Of a stretch of 64,000 bases of DNA, positions 3,289 to 47,980 are shown piece by piece (within the stretch, counting starts at the first letter, position 1; each line of letters begins with the position of its first letter). The translations under genes were made by a program, and so were the position numbers. Below the pieces are notes generated by a model, which ran no database searches, had not been told where the DNA came from, and saw only the letters and a program-made list of their open reading frames with translations. Where the stretch lies: the NCBI GenBank assembly GCA_963514005.1, contig OY740805.1, positions 20,584,001-20,648,000 of the forward strand, written 5' to 3'. Source of the stretch: Raja brachyura (lineage: Eukaryota).

Positions 3289-6200
3289 ATTATCACTAAT
3301 GCAGCCACAATTTCAGTGGCTACTTCCATAAATACCCTGGGATGCTGCCTATCTGGCCCTGGGGATTTATCGGCCTTTAATCCATTTACATTTACCTAAC
3401 ACCACTTCCCGGTTAACCTGGAGTTCACTCAGTTCCGTCTCATGTCATAGACATATCATAGTAGAAGGCGAATTATACTCAAAAAAAGTGACTCTTCTTA
3501 ATGTATATGGACCAAATTTTGATAGTCCACTGTTTTTCAAGAGAATACTTAATAACATCCCGGAATGCACACAAATAATTTAATAATTGGTGGCGACTTA
3601 AATTGTACACTAGATCCATATTTAGATAGATCATCAACTCAAAGAAAATCAAAATCTATTTCAAGTGAATTTTTAAACTCGTATATAAATAATACCAATA
3701 TTAAGGATGTTTGGAGAATTGAAAACCCATCCGGACGAGAATATTCATTTTACTCACCTGTGCATTAAAACATATTCAAGGATAGACTATTTTTTAGTAG
3801 ACTCTAAACTAATTCCATTTACTTATAAGTCACGATATCATAACAATATAATTTCGGATCATGCTCCATTAACGTTTATGATTAAATTAAACGGAATGGA
3901 CAAGATACAGACACAATGGAGACTTAATCCTCAAATCTTAAAGGAACTGGTATGTTTTGAATATCTTGTAAAACAGATTAATATGTTTTTCGAGGTCAAT
4001 GACCAGCCTGAAATCTCTGCTTCCCTTCTCTGGGAAACATTTAAAGCATTTATACGAGGGGCATTAATTTCTTCTCAAGCATTTCTTGATAAAGAGAATA
4101 GAGCTAAACAAAAAAGATTGGAAATGGAAATAAGGCAATTAGACATAGAAAATGCAGGAGCACCTTCATTGGCAAAACATAACAAAATAGCAGCACTGAA
4201 ATATAAGTTAAAGAAAATATACTCTGACCAAGTAATAAAACTTTATCAACACACAAAACAATTAAATTTTGAATTTGGTGATAAACCACAAAAACTATTA
4301 TCACGCCAGCTTCGTAAATTTGACGGGGAAAAAACGATTCATAAGATTAGATCAAATAAGGGAGAAATACTAACACTCCCCAAAGATATTAATAACAGAT
4401 TTTTACAATACTATCAAAATCTTTATTCAAATAAATTGGCAGAACAATCAACAGGAATGGAAGCATTTTTACAGAAATGTAACCTTAAAGGCTTATATTT
4501 GCAAGAGCAAGAATTATTAGGAGCTGAAATAACGACAAAAGATATCGAAGAGTCAATTAGATCTTTAAAAAATGGAAAGGCCGCAGGCCCTGATGGCCTA
4601 AGCTCTGAATTTTATTTTAAAAAATTATGATTTGATCTCTTCACGCTTACAAACACTGTACAAACACATTTATACTCAACAGCAACTCCCGGAACCTTTA
4701 AACGAATCTACAATAATACTTATACCTAAAACTGATAAGGATCTGGCAGACCCAGCCTCATATAGAGCAATAGCTCTATTAAATACTGATCAGAAAATAC
4801 TAACGAAAATCCTATCTTATAGATTGAGTTTAGTGATTAACAAATGAATACACCCTGACCAAACAGGCTTTATCCCAAAACGTCACTCATTTTACAATCT
4901 GAGACAATTATTTAATATTATATACTCAAATAGAATTGCTAACGCAGATCTAGCAATTATTTCGCTAGATGCTGAAAAAGCCTTTGATCAAGTAGAATGG
5001 TCATATTTATTTTCAGTGATGGAAAAATTTGAACTGGGAGAGAAGTACTGCACATGGGTTAAACTTTTATACTCTAACCCAACAGCTAGAATACTAACTA
5101 ACCAAATGTTATCATCTAAATTTAATCTCTCTAGAGGTTGTAGACAAGGATGCTCGCTGTCTCCATTATCATTCGCTTTAGCAATTGACCCACTCGCAGA
5201 AAATGTCAGATCTAATCCAGAAATACATGGGTATAATACTAAAGATACAAATAATAACATTTCTCTATATGCAGATGATGTATTAATATATATTACAAAG
5301 CCAGAAATTAGTATTCCAAATTTATTAAATCTAATAACTCAATTCGGTCAGTTCTCAGGATATAGCATTAATTGGAATAAAAGCGAAATCATGCCAATAA
5401 CGGAACTCAATTTACATATACTACAACAATCACCTTTTAAAATAGTTGAGGAAAAAATTAAATACCTAGGTATTTATGAAACTAAGGCGTATACTTCTTT
5501 ATTTAAATCAAATTTCCCACCTTTACTGAATAAACTAAATAAGAATATTCAATACTGGAAAATATTTCCTATTACAATGTTCGGTAGAATTAATGCTATA
5601 AAAATGATCTTTCTGCCGCAATTATTGTACTTATTTCAGTCAATCCCGATATATATTCCAAAATCTTTTTTTTTTAATGTAGACTCTACTGTTACAAGTT
5701 TCATCTGGGATTACAAGAATCATAGAATAAATAAAAAACATTTATGTAAATCAAAGATTAATGGAGGCTTAGCTCTACCAAACTTTCTGTTTTATTTTTG
5801 GGCAGTCCATATTAAAAAAATGAATTTTTGGCTGGAAGAAATGGATCAACAACCAGACTGGTTAAGGATGGAAAAGGAGGACTGTTTACCCTTTGAAATC
5901 GGTTCGATTATATTTGCACCGACAAAATTGCACAAAAAAACTATAGGGAAAACCCTATAATATATAGTGGAACACAAATCTGGAAACAACTAAAAAGGGC
6001 ATTAAAATTGAATAATATACCACTCTATTGTCTCCCTATTGTGAACATCCCTTATTTAAACCTTCCATGCTGGATAAAGGTTTTACACAATGGAAAAACC
6101 ATGGGAGCAAAAAGATGGAACACCTTTAAAGATAGGCACTATTCTTTTATTTCAGGAATTACAACAGATTTACGGATTACATTCAAATATTTTTTTCCGA

Positions 6201-31880: not shown

Positions 31881-32188
31881 GTAAGTTAAAAACTGATAAT
31901 CGTTGACTTCGTGCTTTTACCAAAGAAAATGCAAACGGAAACAAGGAACCTACCGTCTAGGAACTAACAAACCCGCGAAGTTTGCAATGCGAGTGAAACG
32001 ATCAGAGAGATTGAAACCCTGGAATGATAGATTTGAAATGCAGGAAGGAACTGTAGTTGTTTAAACCGAAGATACACACAAAAAGCTGGTGTTATTCCGC
32101 GGGTTAGATGTTGCCTGACTCGCTGAGTTACTCCAGCTTGTGTCTATGATAGCTTTGAAGTTTCATTGTAAAATACGTTTCACGTGTG

Positions 32189-33043
32189 TGTGGCGCATCT
32201 AAGACGGTGTGCCCACATTGATTTAATTTATGTGATGGTGTATTGGCAGTTTATAAGGTGCAGCAGTGAGGGGGAACCTCTGTGTTACTCCAGTTGCTCC
32301 GGGGACTGGAAACAGCAAGGCACTCCCCCCCCCCCCCCCCCATCTCAGCAGAAGCAACCTGGGGATGAATTAAGATGCACTGTGTCCTCATTTGTCTTCT
32401 CACACCTGCTTTTATACAGGTTGGTAGACTGTCAGGACCACACAAATATGCACTTTTGGGGTTTGAATATGGTTGGGTGAAGTTTCTGTGTTGTTTTGGG
32501 TGTTAAGAAAGTTGAAGTTAGTGGATTACTGGTTGTTAATGTTTCTGTGTGCTGGGTTGGAAGATATAATAATGTGTAGCATGGGCATGTTTCTTATTAG
32601 GTCATTCCATAACCTGTGGTGGTTGCAGACGTTGCAATGAGGATATGGCATAGAAAAAAAAGGCCAAATGTCAACTTTTAGCATGTTGCTGGAAATGTAC
32701 AGTGAAGGTTAATTAAGTGCCTAATAATATTTATTGAAGTGTAAAATCAAAAATACAAGTGTGTAAATCGCACAGAGAGTGTATTGAGTACAAGGGAAAC
32801 ATAGGAAAGAATGGGCTGTGAGTGAAACTGTAACAAAATGGGTGTGTTAGGGAGAGACAAAATGGATGACTGAACCAATGATAAGAGCAATGTTTTGTGT
32901 TTACATGATTATTGAATAAAACAACCAGCAGAAGCAACCTGGGGATGAATTAAGATGCACTGTGTCCTCATTTGCCTTCTCACACCTGATTTTATACAGG
33001 TTATCTATCTGCTTTACGGTGCCCAACCTTGGGACCCGTAACA
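32189..33043 (+). repeat. 5' LTR (855 bp, TG...CA)
   Basis: Starts TGTGGCGC and ends GTAACA just before the PBS; AATAAA at 32915-32920. Confidence 0.93.
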
Positions 33044-33048
33044 GATCG

Positions 33049-33066
33049 TGGGGGCTCGTCCGGGGT
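33049..33066 (+). promoter_or_regulatory. Primer-binding site, tRNA-Pro
   Basis: TGGGGGCTCGTCCGGGGT, a 17/18 match to the tRNA-Pro PBS TGGGGGCTCGTCCGGGAT. Confidence 0.9.
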
Positions 33067-33225
33067 CGGCGCCACTTCGTGGTTGGAGTGGAGCTGATCA
33101 ACTAATGACACCTGAGACCGAGACAGGGCTGATTCGAGCTGAGTGCCGAGAGCGGTGAGTCAGAGCAGAGACTGTGCCATTGCTGAACTGTGATCCATCG
33201 TGAAAGACGGTGAAAAGCTGCTGCC

Positions 33226-34818
33226 ATGTCAGAGAGTGGGAGGAAGAGCCGAGTGTGGGACATTCGGAAGTCACTGCTCACCTTGTCAGCTGCAGAGCTT
33301 TTTCACATCGCCAAAGAGATGGGTTCAACGTCAGATTGGGACCTGTCTGAACTCCATGAAGGAGACCATGAAGGCTGCTTCGACAAAATCAGTTCATTAA
33401 TGTACAGTAAGCATTTGTTAGAGTCAGAAGACAGTGGAATGTCTGAATTGTTGGGTTTGAAAGATGCTATTGATGATATTGTAAAGACCCGAAAAGTATT
33501 GTGTTTGCCAGAGCTAGAAACACAACCCATAGGTGCTCATGGAGATACTACTAACCAAATGTTCCAAGTCAGTTCTACTTTGCCAAACAGTGATGCTTTC
33601 ACCACTGACCCAGTACTACCTACTGCTGTATCTGACTCCACAAACGTAGAGTTACTCGAAATGCTCACTAGCTATGAGGAGCTTGGTAAAAGGCTGAAAC
33701 AAAGCATTATGGTACCGACAACTCAGTCACCAGAAGACTGTCCGCCAGTAGCAGCACAGGCTAATAAGTCTCGAAGTGACTCATCATACCACAACCCGAC
33801 AGTTGTTCAACCCAATCGAGAGGGGATGATTTCCATAAGAGATCTCGCCTATCTCCAGAGAAGGGAGTTTAAGGTACAAGGGGGCCAGGTTGGTGATCAT
33901 TCGTCAGACATCAGTTATAGCAATGTCTGTAAGCAAATAGAAGAAGGGATCAAAGAAGGCTTCCATGATGCAGAGATAGTTCGTGGTGTGCTCCGGATAA
34001 TGAAACCTGGAATTTTTAAAGAGATGCTAATGAACAAGGATGACTTGACTGTGATGGAACTCAAGGGATTTCTCCAGGCTCACCTAAGAGAAAAAAGCAG
34101 TGCAGAGTTATTTCAAGAGTTAATATGTGCCAAGCAGGAGGAGAACGCGACACCACAACAATTCCTCTATCGTGTCATAGGTTTGAAGCAACGTGTCCTA
34201 TTCACATCAAAACTGTCAGACGCAGGTATAAAATACAGTGCAGCCACTGTTCAAGATGGCTTCCTACATACAGTTTACCAGGGATTGGGCTACAAACACA
34301 GTGAGCTACGCAGAGAAATAAAACCTCTCTTGTCCAGTGGTGAAGTAAGTGATGAGACAATATTGCGCCAGGTAATGAAAATCACCAGTGAAGAAAGTGA
34401 GAGACAAAAGAGGATAGGTCCTTTTCGTCGGCAGGCTGCAGTTCATGCACATGGTGCACAGTTTGAGCCGAATACAGCAAAAGAGCAGGGTAGCAAGCAA
34501 GAGAGTGTGGCGCCAAAAGTAAAGACAGACCCAATTAAAGAGCTTACAGCCAAGGTAGATGAGCTCACAAGTATGATTGAGGCCATGAAACGACAAATTA
34601 AGCCACAACCAACAGATGTGAGGAACCAATATTCTCAAAATAAAATGAGACCCAGGAGAGATAAATCATACGGTTGTCCAAAATGTGTTGAACAAAACCG
34701 CCAGGACTGTAACCATTGTTTCTCGTGTGGGGAGGAAGGCCACAGAGCTGTTGGCTGCTTAAAGAAACAGAAGAGTCAGGGAAACCTGCACCGGTCGCTG
34801 CAGGGGGGCGCCCAGTGA
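33226..34818 (+). CDS. gag: Gag (530 aa) with CCHC zinc knuckle
   Basis: Intact ORF; [14 protein letters not shown], preceded by an extra CPKC..CNHC Cys cluster. Confidence 0.93.
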
Positions 34819-34839
34819 TCGGATCTGAGAAACGTCCCC
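34779..34839 (+). promoter_or_regulatory. -1 ribosomal frameshift signal (slippery heptamer + predicted pseudoknot)
   Basis: G_GGA_AAC in the gag frame; pol is in the -1 frame; stems are described in the findings. Confidence 0.85.
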
Positions 34840-37800
34840 AAACTCAAACTGATTGTGATGACAACAATACAGATCTTCCTTTGTCCACCACTTCAGAAGT
34901 AGCGAGCACACAGTACAATGACAAACAAAGCAAATCATCTTCTCAGTTCTCTTTTGAACCACAATGTACCAAACGTAAAGCTGTCGCCAACATGATAGGA
35001 AAGAAGGCTCTGATACAATGTAATCTAAGTGGTTTGGCGGTAACTGCATTGCTTGACTCGGGCGCACAAGTTAGTATTATCAGCCGTGCCTGGAAAGATC
35101 TACACCTGCCTGATCTAAACATTCGACCAATGTCTGAGATCATTGAGGAACTGGATGAGCTAAAGGTTTATGCAGTCAATGGAGAGCTCATTCCTTTTGA
35201 TGGATGGGTTCCTATAATGACCAACCTACCTGGGAATGAGGACCCAAGTCTTGCCATCAGTGTCCCATTCTTAGTTAGCAGCTTGACCATGGAAAGACCG
35301 TTGATTGGTTTTAATGTTCTTGAGCAGCTTGTTGAGGGACAGCCAGAAAGGTTAGTACCTACTCTGATACAGTTGTTTCAGAATGCCATTGGTGTTTCAA
35401 GTGAGAAAGCCGAAGCAGTGGTGAGTTTTATTCAGACAGTGGAGCCAAGTATGCCACAAGGATGCCTAAGAACTGGTGCAAAGGACGTGGTCGTTCCAGC
35501 TGGACAAGTCAGCTGGGTGAGATGCCGGGTTCCCCCAACCATGAACTCCTATGGCCGTCTGGTATTGTTCGAATCAGACGAAGGCAGTCAGCCTTTGGAT
35601 CAGCTAGATCTAGGAGCAGGTTTGGTTGAAATGCAGAATCCTTTAAAACCGTATGTCACCATTGCTGTTGGCAACAACACCAGCCATGACATTATCTTGC
35701 CACGTAAGACAGCCCTGGGCACCTTACAGCATATTGAAAGGGTTGTGGAAGCTGACCCTCCAAGAAAAGTGGCATCCATGACAACAGTCAACGAGGTCAC
35801 CTCTCAACTTCATCAACCAACTCCATCACTGTGGCATCCGCTCGTGAACCTTGATCACCTGGAGGAAAATCAGCAAGAGGTTGTCAGGAAAATCTTATTT
35901 GAGGAGTCAAAAGCCTTTGCCAGAGATGAAAATGATATTGGATGCAACCCAAACCTGCAAATGGTGATAAATCTGAAAGATGACATTCCTGTGCAGAGAG
36001 CGTACACATCCATCCCAAAACCACTGTTGAGAGAAGTAAAGGAATATGTTCAAGACCTCCTTGTCAAGGGATGGATTGTGAAATCTAGGTCCTCCTATGC
36101 CGCTCCAGTTGTGTGTGTGCGGAAGAAAGACGGTACGCTGCGCCTCTGCATAGATTATCGTCTATTGAATCAGAAAACGGTGCCGGATAGACACCCACTG
36201 CCTCGAATACGAGACTTGCTGGACACCTTGGGTGGTTACTCGTGGTTTAGCATCCTTGACCAGGGTAAGGCCTACCACCAGGGTTTCGTGGCTGAAAGGT
36301 CACGTCATCTCACTGCTTTCATCACACCCTGGGGGTTTTATGAGTGGGTAAGGATCCCGTTTGGCCTATCAAACGCGCCAGCAGCATTCCAGAGAAGTAT
36401 GGAGGAGATGTTGAGTTCGCTGAGGGATGAGTGCTGTATATCCTACCTCGATGACATCCTCTGCTACTCGCGGTCATTTGAAGATCATGTGGAAGTGGTC
36501 CGCAAGGTTCTCCAAGCTTTGCAACATCAAGGGGTAAAGCTCCGATCTGAAAAGTGTGAGTTGTTCAAGCAAGAGGTTCGCTATGTTGGCCGCCTTGTCT
36601 CTGCTAACGGTATTCGAGTTGATCCCAAGGACCTGAATGCTGTGCTGGCTTTGAAAGACAAAACACCACAGACGGTAGGTGATTTGAGAAGGGTTCTCGG
36701 TTTTCTCAGTTACTACAGGACATACGTTCAAAACTTCTCAACGATAGCAAAGCCATTGTATGAGATGCTCCAAGGGAAATCCTCAATTCAAGTCCAGTCG
36801 CGACAAGGTAAAGCCAAGGGACCCCAACTGTCATCCAGGGCACCCATACAGTGGACTGCTGAACATCAAAGTGTACTCGAGAGACTGATTGACATGTTGA
36901 CACATCCACCGGTTTTGGCATACCCAAACTTCGACAGGCCTTTCGTCTTGCATACCGATGCATCAGAGCAAGGTCTAGGAGCTGTTCTCTACCAGCAACA
37001 GGAGGGAAAGCTACGAGTCATTGGGTATGGGTCACGGACTTTGACAGCTGCAGAGAGGAACTACCATATGCATAGTGGCAAGTTGGAGTTCCTTGCACTT
37101 AAGTGGGCAGTGTGCGAGAAATTTAGGGACAACCTCTATTATGCTCCACACTTTACCATCTTCACTGACAACAACCCACTTACTTACATCATGAGCACTG
37201 CCAAACTCAATGCGGTTGGTCACCGGTGGGTGGGAGAACTGTCAGACTTCCATTTTGACATCAGGTACAGACCAGGAAGAGTCAACACGGACGCAGATAC
37301 TCTGTCCCGAGTCCCTCTTGATATTGACCAGTACATGTCAACATGCACAGAGGAGTTGTCGCAGGATGTAGTGAATGCAGCTTGGGAAGGAAGTCAAGCA
37401 GCCCAGAGGAAAGATGTGGCATGGATAGCCGCTCTCGCTGTCTCCTCTCAAGATGTTGTCCTACAGCCCCGCGCCCCTCTACACAGCATTAGTGATGACG
37501 ACTTGGTCCAAGCTCAAAGAGAGGATCCCGAGATAGGTAAGATCTTAAAGCTCAAAGAGATGAACAGTAAATTGACAGACGACATCAGAAGGACTGTGAG
37601 AGGAAGCGCATGCAAGCTTCTGCATGAGTGGAGCAGGTTGCACATCGAGGATGGGTTGCTGTACCGAAGAACAACAAGTAGGAAACAATTAGTACTACCT
37701 CTGAAATACCACCCTGTGGTATTAAAGCACCTCCACGACAACATGGGGCATGTGGGCATGGAGAGAGTTCTTCACCTCGCCAGGGAGAGGTTTTACTGGC

Positions 37801-39514
37801 CCTACATGAAAAGGTGTGTCGAGGACTATGTAACAAAGAAGTGCAGTTGCATCAAACAGAAGAAGCCTACAGTGCATGTGCGTGCACCAATGAGCGGTCT
37901 GAAGTCTAACTCACCCCTAGAAATGGTTTGTATCGACTTCTTACACCTGGAAAAGAGCAAAGGCGGTTATGAGTACATCCTAGAAGTAATTGACCATTTT
38001 ACAAGGTTTGCTCAGGCCTACCCTACAAAAAACAAGTCTGGCCGGACGGCAGCAGAACGGATTTACAATGACTTTGTACCACGTTTCGGATTCCCAAACA
38101 AGCTCCATCATGACCAAGGGCGTGAATTCGAGAATGAACTGTTTCGAACCCTTGGCCAGCTCTCTGGAGTAGGACATTCCCGAACATCTCCATATCACCC
38201 GCAAAGTAATCCAGCAGAGCGATTCAATCGAACCTTGCTGCAGATGCTGCGAACTCTGACAGACATAGAAAAGGAGATATGGAAAGAACATCTCCCACAG
38301 GTTGTACATGCGTATAACTGCACACGCCATGAGTCCACTGGCTATTCCCCTCACTATCTTCTCTATGGTCGACACCCTCGCCTTCCTGTGGATCTCTTGT
38401 TTGGGTTGGCTGAAGAAATAGATCCAGTGACGCACAAAGGTTATGCTGAGAAGTGGCAAAAAAGGATGGCGGAAGCATACCGCATTGCTAACAACAACAG
38501 TCTGGCTTCAAGTGCAAAAGGAAAGTCCTACTATGATCAGAAGGTGAGAGGAGTGGTCCTGAAGCCTGGGGATAGAGTGTTGGTTAGAAATCTGGGAGAG
38601 CGAGGTGGGCCTGGGAAACTACGTTCCTACTGGGAAAAGAGGATATATGTAGTGAAAGAGCAAGTCTCAGACAACCCAGTGTATGTTATTCATCCAGAAA
38701 ACGATGGCAAAGGGGGACTGAGGACGCTGCATAGAAACCTGCTTTTACTGGTAATGATTTACCAGTGGAATTCCCATCGCAGCAGACCAAACCAACTTCA
38801 AAGCCACAGACGAAAAGGAAACCTCAGCTGAGAAGGAGTGACATAAGAGACAGAACCGAGAATGCAGAGACATCTGACTCGGATGATGAGTCAGGAGGAG
38901 GTTATTGGTTGAGGATACCCCTAAGTCGGGCTGAGCCAAGGACAGCAGCTACGCCTGAGAGAATGCCGGCTCAGACTCCTAGTAAACCTGCCAGAATCCA
39001 ACATGAGCAAGCACAAAGAACACCCACTCGAGTGACCCGACAAAGGGATAAAGATTCATTCATATCAGTCGGAAAACATGAAAGAAGTCAAGAACGGATG
39101 GTGGTCCAAATATCACCTGAAATGGACTTGAGGCCACCAGAAGCTGAAATACAGCCACAGGATCAATGGAAAAGACACTCAACAGATGAAGGCGAACCAC
39201 AACAGGAGGATGATCAGGACATTCCCCATGACACTGAACAAGATGTGAAGATTGTTGCAGATCTCGAGCATCACTCTCTCTCACCTTCTGAACCTGGATC
39301 CCCTGTTACACTGAGACGGTCCACAAGGGAAAGACGGCCAGTCCAAAGGCTCACCTACTCATCTCTTGGTCATCCGACCTATCAACCATTTCCTGCTGTG
39401 AACACTATTGGCACGTACCTCATGCCCTATACTGACCCACTGTGCAGGCCATCATTCCAGTGTGCACCCATGGTCCAATATTCATACTTGCCATGTACGG
39501 TACAGGGTTATTGA
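34779..39514 (+). CDS. pol: Pol polyprotein (protease, RT, RNase H, integrase); one apparent frameshift near 38753 separates the C-terminal tail
   Basis: [39 protein letters not shown] 38765-39514 continues with a typical RRSTRERRP tail. Confidence 0.93.
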
Positions 39515-39679
39515 GAATAAACAGTGGTGATGTAATCAAACTAGAGTCATATTTTTTTTATAGTTGAAGATTTTGAATATTGTAAATATTTTTGAGTCTG
39601 TGAAAGATTGTTGATTATTTTCAATGGACACTTGCGATTTGAAATAAGTGTCAGGTGCCACTTTTGTTGTTGGGGAGCG

Positions 39680-40513
39680 TGTGGCGCATCTAAGACGGTG
39701 TGCCCACATTGATTTAATTTATGTGATGGTGTATTGGCAGTTTATAAGGTGCAGCAGTGAGGGGGAACCTCTGTGTTACTCCAGTTGCTGCGGGGACTGG
39801 AAACAGCAAGGCACTCCCCCCCCCCCATCTCAGCAGAAGCAACCTGGGGATGAATTAAGATGCACTGTGTCCTCATTTGCCTTCTCACACCTGCTTTTAT
39901 ACAGGTTGGTAGACTGTCAGGACCACACAAATATGCACTTTTGGGGTTTGAATATGGTTGGGTGAAGTTTCTGTGTTGTTTTGGGTGTTAAGAAAGTTGA
40001 AGTTAGTGGATTACTGGTTGTTAATGTTTCTGTGTGCTGGGTTGGAAGATATAATAATGTGTAGCATGGGCATGTTTCTTATTAGGTCATTCCATAACCT
40101 GTGGTGGTTGCAGACGTTGCAATGAGGATATGGCATAGAAAAAAAAGGCTAAATGTCAACTTTTAGCATGTTGCTGGAAATGTACAGTGAAGGTTAATTA
40201 AGTGCCTAATAATATTTATTGAAGTGTAAAATCAAAAATACAAGTGTGTAAATCGCACAGAGAGTGTATTGAGTACAAGGGAAACATAGGAAAGAATGGG
40301 CTGTGAGTGAAACTGTAACAAAATGGGTGTGTTAGGGAGAGACAAAATGGATGACTGAACCAATGATAAGAGCAATGTTTTGTGTTTACATGATTATTGA
40401 ATAAAACAACCAGCGGAAGCAACCTGGGGATGAATTAAGATGCACTGTGTCCTCATTTGCCTTCTCACACCTGCCTTTATACAGGTTATCTATCTGCTTT
40501 ACGGTGCCCAACC
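39680..40513 (+). repeat. 3' LTR, lacking its last 15 bp
   Basis: Matches the 5' LTR up to GCCCAACC; TTGGGACCCGTAACA is absent. Confidence 0.92.
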
Positions 40514-40719
40514 ATGTTTTATAAGATGTTGCGATGCTTTTCTCATCAAATCGCTCCAGCACTGGAACGGCGATATGTAGGCAAAACGGATATACACATA
40601 TTGGCGATCGGTATTTATAAAGGAAAATAAGGTTAATGCAGAAAACTAGAATACAATTCAGACATGATAATTGAAAACGTGTCAGCTACAAGTGACCACA
40701 TGGTGAACGCTGTTCTTAT

Positions 40720-42125: not shown

Positions 42126-43514
42126 TTGACACTATTTGTGCTTTGATCCCTTCACGTGCAGCTGGGTAATATTGGACATTTTCCAATCATGGGAAATTTC
42201 CAATTATTGAAATCTCCTATGACCACCATAGCATTGCCCTTTTGCTTGTTTCTATATTCAATCCATGCAGAACACTGAATCTTTTCGACAAATGGTTAAC
42301 TCCTAGGTTTATTACGTTTGCTAATGAGACCATTGCGCGATCTCAAATGCTTGCTGATTCTTCTGGGCATTTTTCATGTCGGAGAATAATTGGAAGGCAC
42401 AGAACATGGAACAGTCCAGCACATGAACAGACAATGTCGGTGCTGAACATGGTGCGAAGATAAAGTAATCTAATTTGCCTGCACATTACCCATTCCCTGC
42501 ATACCCACGTGCCTATCTAAAACCGTCTTCAACGTCATTATTGCATCCGCCCACCGGCACATGTGGCAGCGCATTCCAGGCATCACCACCCTCACTGTCA
42601 AACGTTTCCCCTTTCGTTTTAAAGTTTATCCCTTTCGCCTTTCCCTTGAACTGGGGAAGATAAAAGTTTTAGACTGCCTACCATATCTATATATCTCAAT
42701 ATGTTATATACTTCTATCAGACCTCCGCTCTACCTATGCCCATGCAGAGAAAACAAACCAAGTCTGAGCTAACAATACTTACAGCGAATACCGTCTAACC
42801 CAATCATAATGCTGACAAATACTGTAGCATTTACACAAACAAAGCCCTCAAATTAACGTTAATGGAAATGCAAAGCATGAATTTCACATCCTTTCTAAGA
42901 TCATAAACCCAATGTAATATCTATCCATGTTTTCTTGTTACTTGCATTGAAATCAGGAGGGGAAAATCGTTAGTTGTAGAAAATATATATATGTGTGTGT
43001 AGGAAGGATTCGCAGGTGCTGTCTTAAAACGAAGATAGACAGAAAAGGCTGGAGTAATTCAGCGAGGCAGGTATCATGGAGAGAAGGAATGGGTGGCGTT
43101 TCGGGTCGAGACCTTCTTCGGACGGTATATGGGTGGATATGTGTATGTACACACACACTAACCTTTTTTTCTCTCGTTGATTATATTGTTTAGAATGTAC
43201 TATGTTTACATATTCAGTTCTGCTGCTGCAAGTAACAATTTAATTGTTCTAGCAGGGACATATGACAATAAAACACTCTTGAATCTTGAATGTTGACTCT
43301 ATAGGCAACGCTACCGGTCGGGCCGTTTCTTAAGTCCGAAGAATGCTCCTGGCTGGTAATGTCGGAAATCCATTCCTTCCACAAATGCCGCCTGTTCCGC
43401 CGAGTTATTCCAACGCGTTGTGTTTTATTTATGAAATAATTGGAGTTCATCGCCAAGTAACATTTTGTCCAAAGCGGTTATTCTCTGTGACTGCGCATCT
43501 TTCTATTCTTGCAG

Positions 43515-44452
43515 GTAATCTTATGGCGATTGTGATTCTATCTCGTGGGAACTGTGGTCTTTCCAAATGCATCACACGTTACATGGTCGCCATGGCTGTT
43601 GCAGACCTACTGGTGATAATATTTGATGTAGTATTATATGAGATTAATGACATGCATTTTCCGCTTTCCTTCTTGCATTATACTCCCGTCTGCAGCCTCA
43701 TAATTGCCCTGGTGTTCGCAGACATTGATTGTTCGGTCTGGCTAACCGTTGCCTTCACATTTGATCGATACATCGCCATTTGTTGTCAGAAGCTGAGAGC
43801 AAAATACTGCGCCGAAAGAACTGCCGCTATTATAATAGTGATTGTGTTTGGAGTAAGCTTTGTGCAGAATATCCCTATTTATTTTGAAAACGAGCATCTG
43901 CTGACTATTGACAACGTGCCATGGTTCTGCAAAGTGAAGTCAAGTCTCTCCAGTTTACCAATATGGATTGCATACTTCTTCTTCGACATTACCTTAACAC
44001 CGTTTGTACCTTTCCTTTTGATTGTGCTGCTTAATGCCCTGACCACCAGACATATTTTACAGGCTAGTCGGATAAGGAGGGGACTCCGGGGGGACGGGAA
44101 AAGCGAGGATTGCACTGATCCGGAGATTGTAAACCGCAGAAAATCGATCATTTTACTGCTCTCCATCTCAAGCTGTTTCATACTGCTATGGATGGTAACA
44201 TTTGTACATTACATATGCACACAATTTGCAGGCGTTGAGTTCATGCTCACAGATTACAACGATCCTTTCGCCATTATGGAGCACACTGGGTATATGCTGC
44301 AGTGCTTGAATTCGTGCACAAACACATTTATTTATGCGGTGGCTCAGGCAAAGTTCAGAGAATCATTGACGAATACGCTGAAATATCCGTTTACTTTCGT
44401 GAATAGATTAGTTCTAACCTCGGACCAGAGACCACGCAGCGTTTTTCAATAA
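43515..44452 (+). CDS. GPR139-like GPCR copy 2, exon 2 (spliced product 335 aa, intact)
   Basis: Acceptor TTTCTATTCTTGCAG|GTAAT; GNLMAIVILSRGNCGLSKCITRYMVAMAVADLL..FTFDRY..NRRKSIILL..NTFIY; seven hydrophobic segments once exon 1 is included. Confidence 0.92.
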
Positions 44453-46145: not shown

Positions 46146-47980
46146 TAACATAGAAACATAGAAACCTAGAAATTAGGTGCAGGAGTAGGCCATTCGGCCC
46201 TTCGAGCCTGCACCGCCATTCAATATGATCATGGCTGATCATCCAACTCAGTATCCCGTACCTGCCTTCTCTCCATACCCTCTGATCCCCTTAGCCACAA
46301 GGGCCACATCTAACTCCATCTTAAATATAGCCAATGAACTGGCCTCAACTACCCTCTGTGGCAGAGAGTTCCAGAGACCCACCACTCTCTGTGTGAAAAA
46401 AATCCTTCTCATCTCGGTCCTAAAGGATTTCCCCCTTATCCTTAAGCTGTGACCCCTTGTCCTGGACCTCCCCAACATCGGGAACAATCTTCCTGCATCT
46501 AGCCTGTCCAACCCCTTAAGAATCTTGTAAGTTTCTATAAGATCCCCTCTCAATCTCCTAAATTCTAGAGAGTATAAACCGAGTCTATGCAGTCTTTGTT
46601 CATAAGACAGTCCTGACATCCCAGGAATCAGTCTGGTGAACCTTCGCTGCACTCCCTCTATGGCAATAATGTCCTTCCTCAGATTTGGAGACCAGAACTG
46701 TACGCAATACTCCAGGTGTGGTCTCACCAAAACCCTATACAACTGAAGTAGAACCTCCCTGCACCTATACTCAAATCCTTTTGCAATGAAAGCTAACATA
46801 CCATTGGCTTTCTTCACTGCCTGCTGTACCTGCATGCCTACTTTCAATGACTGGTGTACCATGACACCCAGGTCGCGCTGCATCTCCCCTTTTCCTAATC
46901 GGCCACCATTTAGATAGTAGTCGGTTTTCCTATTTTTGCCACCAAAGTGGATAACCTCACATTTATCCACATTATACTGCATCTGCCAAACATTTGCCCA
47001 CTCACCCAGCCTATCCAAGTCACCTTGCATTCTCCTAGCATCCTCCTCACAGCTAACACTGCCCCCCAGCTTAGTGTCATCCGCAAACTTGGAGATATTG
47101 CCTTCAATTCCCTCATCCAGATCATTTATGTATATTGTAAATAGCTGGGGTCCCAGCACTGAGCCTTGCGGTACCCCACTAGTCACTGCCTGCCGTTGTG
47201 AAAACGACCCGTTTACTCCTACTCTTTGCTTCCTGTTTGCCAGCCAGTTCTCTATCCACATCAATACTGAACCCCAATGCCGTATGCTTTATGTTTATAT
47301 ACTAATCGCTTATGTGGGACCTTGTCAAAAGCCTTCTGGAATCCAGATACACCACATCCACTGGTTCTCCCCATCCACGCTACTAGTTACATCCTCGATA
47401 AATTCCACAAGATTCGTCAGACATGATTTACCTTTCGTAAATCCATGCTGACTTTGTCCAATGATTTCACCACTTTCCAAATGTGCTGCTATCCCATCTT
47501 TAATAACTGACTCTAGCAGTTTCCCCACTACTGATGTTAGATTAACTGGTCTGTAATTCCCCGTTTTCTCTCTCCCCCCCTTCTTAAAAAGAGGGGTTAC
47601 GTTTGCTACCCGCCAATCCTCAGGAACTACTCCAGAATCTAAAGAGTTTTTGAAAGATTATCACTAATGCATCCACTATTTCCGGAGCTACTTCCTTAAG
47701 TACTCTGGGATGCAGCCTATCTGGCCCTGGGGATTTATCGGCCTTTAATCCATTCAATTTACCCAACACCATTTCCCGACTAACCTGGATTTCACTCAAG
47801 TACTCCTTTGACCTGCGGTCCCCTGCTATTTCCGGCAGATTATTTATGTCTTCCTTAGTGAAGGCGGAACCAAAGTAGTTATTCAATTGGTCCGCCATAT
47901 CCTTGTTCCCCATGATCAACTCACCTGTTTCTGTCAGCAAGGGACCTACATTTGTTTTAACTAATCTATTTCTCTTCACA
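46146..47980 (-). mobile_element. CR1 LINE, 5'-truncated, fairly young
   Basis: 338-aa ORF with GVPQGSVLGP and FADDTK; upstream frameshifted KSPGPD and QHGF pieces; (TTTCTATG)n tail. Confidence 0.95.

What the first reader, a model, noticed from the sequence alone, without database searches (positions are those of the whole stretch)
32346..33002. LTR-internal 77-bp direct repeat that could splice out the LTR's own poly(A) signal seamlessly
Seen: each LTR holds two near-identical 77-bp copies 580 bp apart (32346-32422 and 32926-33002; 39831-39907 and 40411-40487). Each copy ends in a pyrimidine tract plus TACAG|GT. Copy 1 continues as a donor-like CAG|GTTGGT, while copy 2 continues GTTATC. The LTR's AATAAA (32915-32920) lies between them, 5 nt before copy 2. 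Inference: splicing 32420-32999 would leave exactly one repeat and remove the poly(A) signal from the 5' end of the genomic RNA, preventing premature termination at the 5' LTR. Strong-stop cDNA from that spliced RNA could then anneal through the repeat to the RNA 3' end, which stops inside copy 2, and rebuild the two-copy LTR each cycle. That would explain why all four copies are nearly identical. I do not know whether this has been described.
Basis: partly seen in the sequence, partly recalled or inferred. Interest (0 to 1): 0.75.

Follow-up and report, generated by a model that had tools for sequence, protein, structure and literature searches.

The report
Possible self-renewing intron in retrotransposon LTR
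A fish-type retrotransposon carries two matching 77-base stretches in each end repeat, placed so that splicing could cut out its own stop signal and copying could rebuild it each cycle, but no RNA data test this yet.

Summary
A young Ty3/Gypsy element (LTRs 32189-33043 and 39680-~40513, about 0.7% apart) has four 77-nt copies. All 4 substitutions are private to one copy; none separates copy 1 from copy 2 in both LTRs.

Both repeat edges fall on functional landmarks. The right edge is an AG|GT with a strong acceptor score and a donor completed by bases outside the repeat; 5 of 125,554 window positions score as well, 2 being copy 1. The left edge lies between the LTR's only AATAAA and the likely cleavage site.

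Best reading (0.5): copy 1 is exon 1, from a cap near 32347 to the donor at 32419. Splicing removes AATAAA and 20 upstream ATGs, and strong-stop cDNA rewrites copy 2 from copy 1. Main rivals: a Rous-sarcoma-like start at copy 2 with an accidental duplicate, or an unspliced genome protected by U1 binding.

No related LTR or RNA data were reachable. Ten paper searches found no description.

The parts
32189..33043 (+). 5' LTR, 855 nt, TGT...GTAACA
   Evidence: LTR-LTR alignment; the end fits the YNYAACA end motif of PMC3601003
32250..32257 (+). TATA-like TTTATAAG (7 of 8 to TATAWAWR); would give a start near 32282 (rival start)
   Evidence: 1 of 3 such matches in the LTR, so not significant
32325..32342 (+). 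Poly-C tract just upstream of copy 1 (about 18 C here, about 12 in the 3' LTR)
32346..32422 (+). Repeat copy 1; proposed exon 1 (cap ~32347 inferred; donor after 32419, CAG|GTTGGT)
   Evidence: 6.05 bits, top 4.3% of 7,038 GT sites, crude matrix
32420..32999 (+). Putative 580-nt intron; its 503-nt unique part is C-poor (10% C), unstructured and holds 18 ATGs, and copy 2 adds 2 more
   Evidence: intron status inferred
32840..32879 (+). GGGTG box (32840) and CCAAT box (32875), about 87 and 52 nt before copy 2; support a rival start at copy 2
   Evidence: motif meaning recalled
32915..32920 (+). Only AATAAA of the LTR; TGTA at 32829, CA dinucleotides ending 7-16 nt downstream, GU-rich stretch inside copy 2
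32926..33002 (+). Repeat copy 2; holds the likely cleavage site (~32930-32950, inferred), branch-like motifs, a 43-nt AG-free stretch and the acceptor at 32999
   Evidence: 8.65 bits, top 1.4% of 7,730 AG sites
33014..33041 (+). Stable U5 hairpin at the LTR end; its 3' arm is the part missing from the 3' LTR
   Evidence: most pairs at probability 0.8-1.0 in 3 of 3 contexts
33049..33064 (+). Primer-binding site (tRNA-Pro type; assignment recalled)
33152..33160 (+). Strong leader donor GCG|GTGAGT, 234 nt after the AATAAA (HIV-like position)
   Evidence: 8.7 bits
33226..34818 (+). gag (ATG 33226), weak zinc knuckle; GGGAAAC slippery heptamer at 34779 in the gag/pol overlap
34713..39514 (+). pol PR-RT-RH-IN; split into two frames near 38735-38831, the second piece matching the C-terminal tail of relatives; no env
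39672..39679 (+). Purine-rich tract before the 3' LTR
39680..40513 (+). 3' LTR, last ~15 nt missing
39831..39907 (+). Copy 1 in the 3' LTR (carries the majority base at every site)
40411..40487 (+). Copy 2 in the 3' LTR, AATAAA at 40400-40405

Best explanation
The repeat is the element's first exon, written twice. (1, inferred) Transcription starts at the left edge of copy 1, near 32347. (2, signals shown, use inferred) The cap-proximal donor at 32419 is spliced to the acceptor at 32999. This removes the only AATAAA and 20 upstream ATGs and leaves one repeat joined to U5. (3, inferred) In the 3' LTR the donor is far from the cap, so cleavage 10-30 nt after AATAAA wins and the RNA ends inside copy 2. 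(4, inferred from standard reverse transcription) Full-length strong-stop cDNA (U5 plus exon 1) anneals to that short terminal piece, an R of about 5-25 nt. The new LTR gets copy 1 and the intron from the 3' end, and copy 2 from exon 1. The acceptor therefore has to be encoded in exon 1, which explains why copy 1 carries acceptor signals it does not use. Predicted by-product: jumps to copy 1 of the 3' LTR give 275-nt LTRs without AATAAA.
For: Right edge: AG|GT within 3 nt of the repeat end, with donor 6.05 bits in copy 1 against 3.39 in copy 2 and acceptor 8.65-10.37 bits in all 4 copies. The G+5 and T+6 that finish the donor lie outside the repeat, and only after copy 1. 5 of 125,554 positions reach both scores: the 2 copy-1 sites, 2 antisense sites inside the element, and 43514, which sits where a host GPCR domain begins and so serves as a positive control. 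Chance of such a site within 5 nt of a given end: 1e-4 to 7e-4; donor alone, 0.012. Left edge: inside the ~25-nt interval between AATAAA and cleavage, chance about 0.03. 0 of 77 sites separate copy 1 from copy 2 in both LTRs. Upstream ATGs before gag fall from 23 to 3. In 47 sliding windows, folding z below -2 occurs only in the 2 windows starting at 32929 and 32969, and the middle segment is unstructured.
Against: No RNA, start-site or related-LTR data. No TATA at -30 of 32347; the TATA-like motif points to ~32282 and CCAAT/GGGTG point to copy 2. The cDNA has a longer match (77 nt) at copy 1 of the 3' LTR than at the RNA end, so intron loss should compete. No structural reason for 5'/3' asymmetry was found: donor opening energy is 4.6-6.6 kcal/mol from copy 1 and 3.9-7.0 with U3, and the direction depends on pairing span. 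The repeat's own hairpin is no better than shuffles (z -0.3 to -0.6). The long repeat-U5 stem is lost in longer contexts, so the folding signal is mostly the U5 hairpin. The pyrimidine tract could partly be a poly(A) downstream element. The splice matrix uses recalled, rounded frequencies and thresholds set after seeing the sites. A strong donor at 33154 offers an HIV-like solution that needs no LTR splice.
Confidence: 0.5

Rival explanations
1. TATA-driven start near 32282 with a long R. The packaged RNA is unspliced, and the 5' poly(A) site is silenced by U1 binding at 32419 (foamy-like) or 33154 (HIV-like). The splice makes a translatable mRNA only. The repeat arose once, or is refreshed rarely, by a partial strong-stop jump from spliced RNA.
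For: TATA-like motif at LTR position 62, similar to the 5'-near AT-rich motif in Sushi LTR models (PMC3601003). Donors on both sides of AATAAA. Both U1 mechanisms are established (PMC3694450; PMC12789967). Partial strong-stop transfers occur (PMC6088434). It explains the right edge.
Against: The TATA match is 1 of 3 in the LTR. It does not explain why homology stops sharply at 32346, or why exon 1 keeps a top-1.4% acceptor. No U3-dependent occlusion of the donor was found.
Confidence: 0.24
2. Rous-sarcoma/MMTV-like LTR. Transcription starts at copy 2, AATAAA sits in U3 and is never in the 5' RNA, and R is short. Copy 1 is a recent accidental duplicate of R-U5 inside U3, and no splice occurs.
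For: AATAAA is 5 nt before copy 2; CCAAT at about -52 and GGGTG at about -87. It gives the same 3-ATG leader with no splicing. Structure begins at copy 2. The mechanism is known (PMC3694450). A recent duplication also gives 0 fixed differences.
Against: It leaves the right edge unexplained: an AG|GT there has chance 1e-4 to 1e-2, and the donor is completed by bases unique to copy 1. No TATA near -30 of copy 2.
Confidence: 0.2
3. Neutral or local artefact: misassembly, or gene conversion after insertion.
For: The window has N runs elsewhere. 4 of 6 LTR-LTR substitutions fall in the repeats (p 0.013, post hoc).
Against: The same architecture in both LTRs, private substitutions in three of the copies, no N in the element, and edges on functional motifs.
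Confidence: 0.06

Closest known systems
Teleost Ty3/Gypsy elements (Barthez-like by size only)
   Same: Pol residues 380-880 are 72-87% identical to the 120 best hits, the named ones almost all teleost. gag ~530 aa and a 6.6-kb internal region resemble Takifugu Barthez4-6 (PMC11117352, table and supplement rows).
   Different: No LTR-internal repeat or LTR intron is mentioned in the passages read. Barthez LTRs are 259-442 or 1025-1116 nt, against 855 here. Clade not tested by a tree.
Foamy virus LTR (PMC3694450; abstract and background read)
   Same: Splice donor in R upstream of AAUAAA in both LTRs; U1 controls which LTR is polyadenylated.
   Different: Suppression there is by U1 binding plus a structural switch. 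The part read describes no acceptor in the LTR, no excision of the signal and no internal repeat.
RSV/MMTV/HTLV-1 U3 poly(A) signal
   Same: AATAAA immediately before a short R; the mature RNA here would look the same.
   Different: They need no splice and no second R copy.
HIV-1 major splice donor
   Same: A strong donor about 200 nt after the 5' poly(A) signal (195 nt in HIV-1; 234 nt here).
   Different: The HIV donor is outside the LTR and the signal stays in the RNA.
Penelope/Chlamys pseudo-LTR intron (PMC8557442, passages)
   Same: An intron in the 5' terminal repeat that survives retrotransposition.
   Different: Non-LTR chemistry with GIY-YIG endonuclease; retention mechanism stated as unknown; here true LTRs and a DDE integrase.
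Mammalian ERVL/MaLR LTRs (PMC5538554, passages)
   Same: A conserved donor inside the LTR.
   Different: Stated to have no splice acceptor; here both are present.

Membership tests
Ty3/Gypsy LTR retrotransposon | pol order PR-RT-RH-IN | tested here: met
   (RT 5e-34, RH 1e-27, rve 2.5e-12; protease only E 0.05, below cut-off)
Ty3/Gypsy LTR retrotransposon | RT closer to Ty3 than to retroviruses | tested here: met
   Ty3 1.6e-88, foamy 6.5e-31, MLV ~1e-20; no tree built
Ty3/Gypsy LTR retrotransposon | No env | tested here: met
   the third ORF matches the Pol tail of 8 of 9 named relatives
Ty3/Gypsy LTR retrotransposon | Paired LTRs TG...CA, PBS, purine tract | tested here: met
   3' LTR end truncated; tRNA-Pro identity recalled
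Ty3/Gypsy LTR retrotransposon | Target-site duplication | tested here: inconclusive
   3' end lost; flanks do not give a clear match
Barthez clade | RT phylogeny with Barthez references | not testable with these tools
   no reference sequence reachable; size resemblance only
RSV/MMTV-type (signal in U3) | Start site downstream of AATAAA | not testable with these tools
   geometry compatible; needs 5'-end data
Foamy-type U1 suppression | Donor upstream of AATAAA within the LTR | tested here: met
   (lies in R only if the start is at or before 32347)
Foamy-type U1 suppression | Donor occluded by structure when U3 is present | tested here: inconclusive
   harder to open at span 150, mostly easier at span 300
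HIV-type U1 suppression | Strong donor downstream of the 5' LTR only | tested here: met
   33154, 8.7 bits; function untested
Penelope-like elements | GIY-YIG endonuclease and pseudo-LTRs | tested here: not met
   rve integrase and true LTRs
Known structured RNA family | Rfam match | tested here: not met
   0 matches at E<=1 in 32100-33300

The most novel reading that the evidence does not exclude
A fourth way to avoid 5'-LTR polyadenylation. The poly(A) signal sits in a spliceosomal intron inside the LTR, and the intron, its acceptor included, is rebuilt at every round of reverse transcription from a duplicate of exon 1. If general in this widespread fish Gypsy lineage, it would give concerted evolution of two LTR-internal repeats and two LTR size classes 580 nt apart.
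Probability: 0.45. Interest if true: 0.82.

Novelty: new variant of a known kind. Interest (0 to 1): 0.62.

Why it matters
Every LTR element must ignore its poly(A) signal at one end and use it at the other; the foamy-virus paper lists three retroviral solutions and adds a variant. None in that text excises the signal. LTR elements are also expected to lose any intron that is spliced from the genomic RNA. A duplicated first exon that regenerates the intron would break that rule by a defined, testable route. It would also predict a recognisable class of short dead-end LTRs and suggest a design for read-through-proof vectors. The claim rests on one insertion.

Tried and rejected
Related LTRs. 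The one scan of bacterial and archaeal genomes gave 2 loci from 139 pattern hits, both short pol fragments (33% and 42% identity) without LTRs. A cluster look-up could not be made. The Takifugu supplement gives coordinates, not sequences. The four FASTA supplements of PMC4746887 are unreadable here and could bear on the family question.

Origin of the middle segment. No significant similarity to U3, U5 or the repeat. The best of 10 comparisons was the stretch before copy 2 against 39400-39679 (4 of 200 shuffles), not convincing after multiple tests. Copy 1's continuation does not resemble U5 (156 of 200), which rejects simple read-through capture.

Structure. A TAR-like hairpin in the repeat is rejected. 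A U3-dependent donor switch is inconclusive.

Copy 1 as an internal cassette exon. The poly-C/CAGCAG left edge scores 9.0 bits as an acceptor. It was set aside because poly-C is a poor tract (recalled) and upstream donors score below 5 bits.

Alternative LTR end at 40514 with a TGTG/TGTT duplication. It needs two extra changes and misses the YNYAACA end.

The bacterial promoter scan and tRNA scan were uninformative.

Literature. Ten searches listed no paper on a spliced, self-regenerating LTR repeat. They cover open-licence PMC and bioRxiv only; Repbase notes and subscription journals were not searched.

Full report
Observation. The four 77-nt copies are at the stated coordinates, 580 nt apart in each LTR, with copy-1/copy-2 BLAST E-values of 1e-30 or lower and no further copy in the window. 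The LTR alignment shows 7 mismatches in 838 columns, one of them at the point where the 3' LTR breaks off, plus a 6-nt poly-C length difference. The four substitutions among the repeats are each private to one copy, and none is shared by both copy 1s or both copy 2s. That bounds copy-1/copy-2 divergence at insertion to under 3.8%. Four of the 6 remaining substitutions fall in the repeats (p 0.013, post hoc); no model here predicts that.

Context. The element is a Ty3/Gypsy retrotransposon: gag, then pol with RT, RNase H and integrase, closest solved relative Ty3. The best 120 of 5,332 hits are 72-87% identical over Pol residues 380-880, and the named ones are almost all teleost. The third ORF is not env; it matches the Pol tail in 8 of 9 named relatives, so pol is split near 38735-38831. 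The 5' LTR is 32189-33043, followed by a primer site at 33049; the 3' LTR lacks its last ~15 nt. Sizes resemble Takifugu Barthez4-6 (PMC11117352; passages, table and six supplement rows seen), but the clade was not tested.

Right edge. With a crude matrix of recalled frequencies, the copy-1 donor scores 6.05 bits (top 4.3% of 7,038 GT sites) and copy 2 scores 3.39. The acceptor scores 8.65-10.37 bits in all four copies (8.65 is the top 1.4% of 7,730 AG sites), with a 43-nt AG-free stretch and branch-like motifs. Five of 125,554 positions reach both scores: the two copy-1 sites, two antisense sites inside the element, and 43514. The last lies where a host GPCR domain begins and is probably a true acceptor. 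The chance of such a site within 5 nt of a given repeat end is 1e-4 to 7e-4, or 0.012 if only the donor is counted because the pyrimidines might serve poly(A). Thresholds were set after seeing the sites. The two bases that complete the donor lie outside the repeat.

Left edge. Homology stops abruptly at 32346/32926, 5 nt after the only AATAAA in LTR and leader, and before the likely cleavage positions; chance about 0.03. A strand-transfer repeat must start in that interval: earlier would put AATAAA in exon 1, later would leave no overlap with the RNA end.

Mechanism (inferred). Both edges are explained if the repeat is exon 1, from cap to donor. Splicing removes AATAAA and cuts upstream ATGs from 23 to 3. 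At the 3' LTR cleavage falls inside copy 2. Strong-stop cDNA anneals to that short end and writes exon 1 into the copy-2 position, so the acceptor must be encoded in exon 1. With a start upstream of the poly-C, full-length cDNA would match about 140 nt of the 3' LTR and delete the intron, and most retroviral first transfers use full-length strong-stop DNA (PMC6088434, passage). With a start at copy 1 the spliced RNA matches an RNA started at copy 2, so only copy-specific bases, lariats or nascent RNA can decide.

Results against. No promoter motif marks 32347. A TATA-like motif (1 of 3 in the LTR) points to ~32282 and CCAAT/GGGTG point to copy 2. Copy 1 of the 3' LTR is a longer competing acceptor for the cDNA, so 275-nt signal-less LTRs should arise; none could be sought. 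Folding gave no consistent 5'/3' asymmetry of the donor and no significant repeat hairpin. Copy 2 plus U5 folds better than shuffles (z -2.6; copy 1 with the same length +0.4), but this rests mostly on the U5 hairpin. A strong donor at 33154 allows HIV-like suppression without any LTR splice.

Comparison. Known solutions are a signal in U3 (RSV, MMTV, HTLV-1), U1 at a downstream donor (HIV-1), a weak site (MLV) and U1 at a donor in R (foamy virus) (PMC3694450, abstract and background; PMC12789967, passages). ERVL LTRs have donors but no acceptor (PMC5538554, passages). Penelope and Chlamys keep an intron in their pseudo-LTR by an unknown route (PMC8557442, passages). PMC3601003 gave general LTR motifs (passages). 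Passages of PMC12786077, PMC9341512, PMC10886601 and PMC8672886 showed nothing on this architecture; of PMC4746887 only the supplement list was seen. Ten searches of open-licence papers listed no description.

Verdict. The feature is real and its edges are unlikely to be chance. Some role for the 32419 donor has about 0.75 probability; the full self-regenerating cycle about 0.5. The element is an ordinary Gypsy member, and the LTR architecture is a new variant as far as these searches reach. Related LTRs and RNA stayed unchecked. Interest 0.62; 0.82 if the cycle is confirmed.

Noticed in passing
window 43514-44452 (+): Rhodopsin-family GPCR coding exon with a strong acceptor at 43514, on the same strand and 3 kb downstream of the 3' LTR; the 3' LTR donor at 39904 could splice into it. 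A second, stop-interrupted GPCR lies at 15533-16534 (-).
   Followed up: partly
window 32346-32351 and 39831-39836: Poly-C followed by CATCT CAG CAG scores as a tandem acceptor exactly at the left edge of copy 1 (9.0 and 8.6 bits in the 5' LTR); possible role only at the 3' LTR.
   Followed up: partly
window 39516-39521: An internal AATAAA right after the pol-tail stop, about 160 nt before the 3' LTR, in a context resembling the LTR AATAAA; could end a non-replicating mRNA.
   Followed up: no
window 40514: The 3' LTR stops at the loop of the U5 hairpin, losing its 3' arm and the terminal CA.
   Followed up: partly
window 34779-34785: GGGAAAC slippery heptamer in the gag/pol overlap, suggesting -1 frameshifting (meaning recalled).
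   Followed up: no
window 34713-39514: Pol is up to 83% identical over the RT region to named teleost elements, although the flanking repeats and GPCRs gave the impression of a cartilaginous-fish host (recalled, untested); horizontal transfer is possible.
   Followed up: no
PMC11117352 Table S1: Takifugu Barthez LTRs fall into two size classes (259-442 and 1025-1116 nt); whether this reflects intron loss is unknown, as no sequences were available.
   Followed up: partly
window 32346-33002 and 39831-40487: 4 of 6 LTR-LTR substitutions lie in the repeats (18% of the length); unexplained.
   Followed up: partly
window 4848-5960, 23623-24747, 46248-47288: Other reverse-transcriptase fragments among many interspersed repeats.
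   Followed up: no
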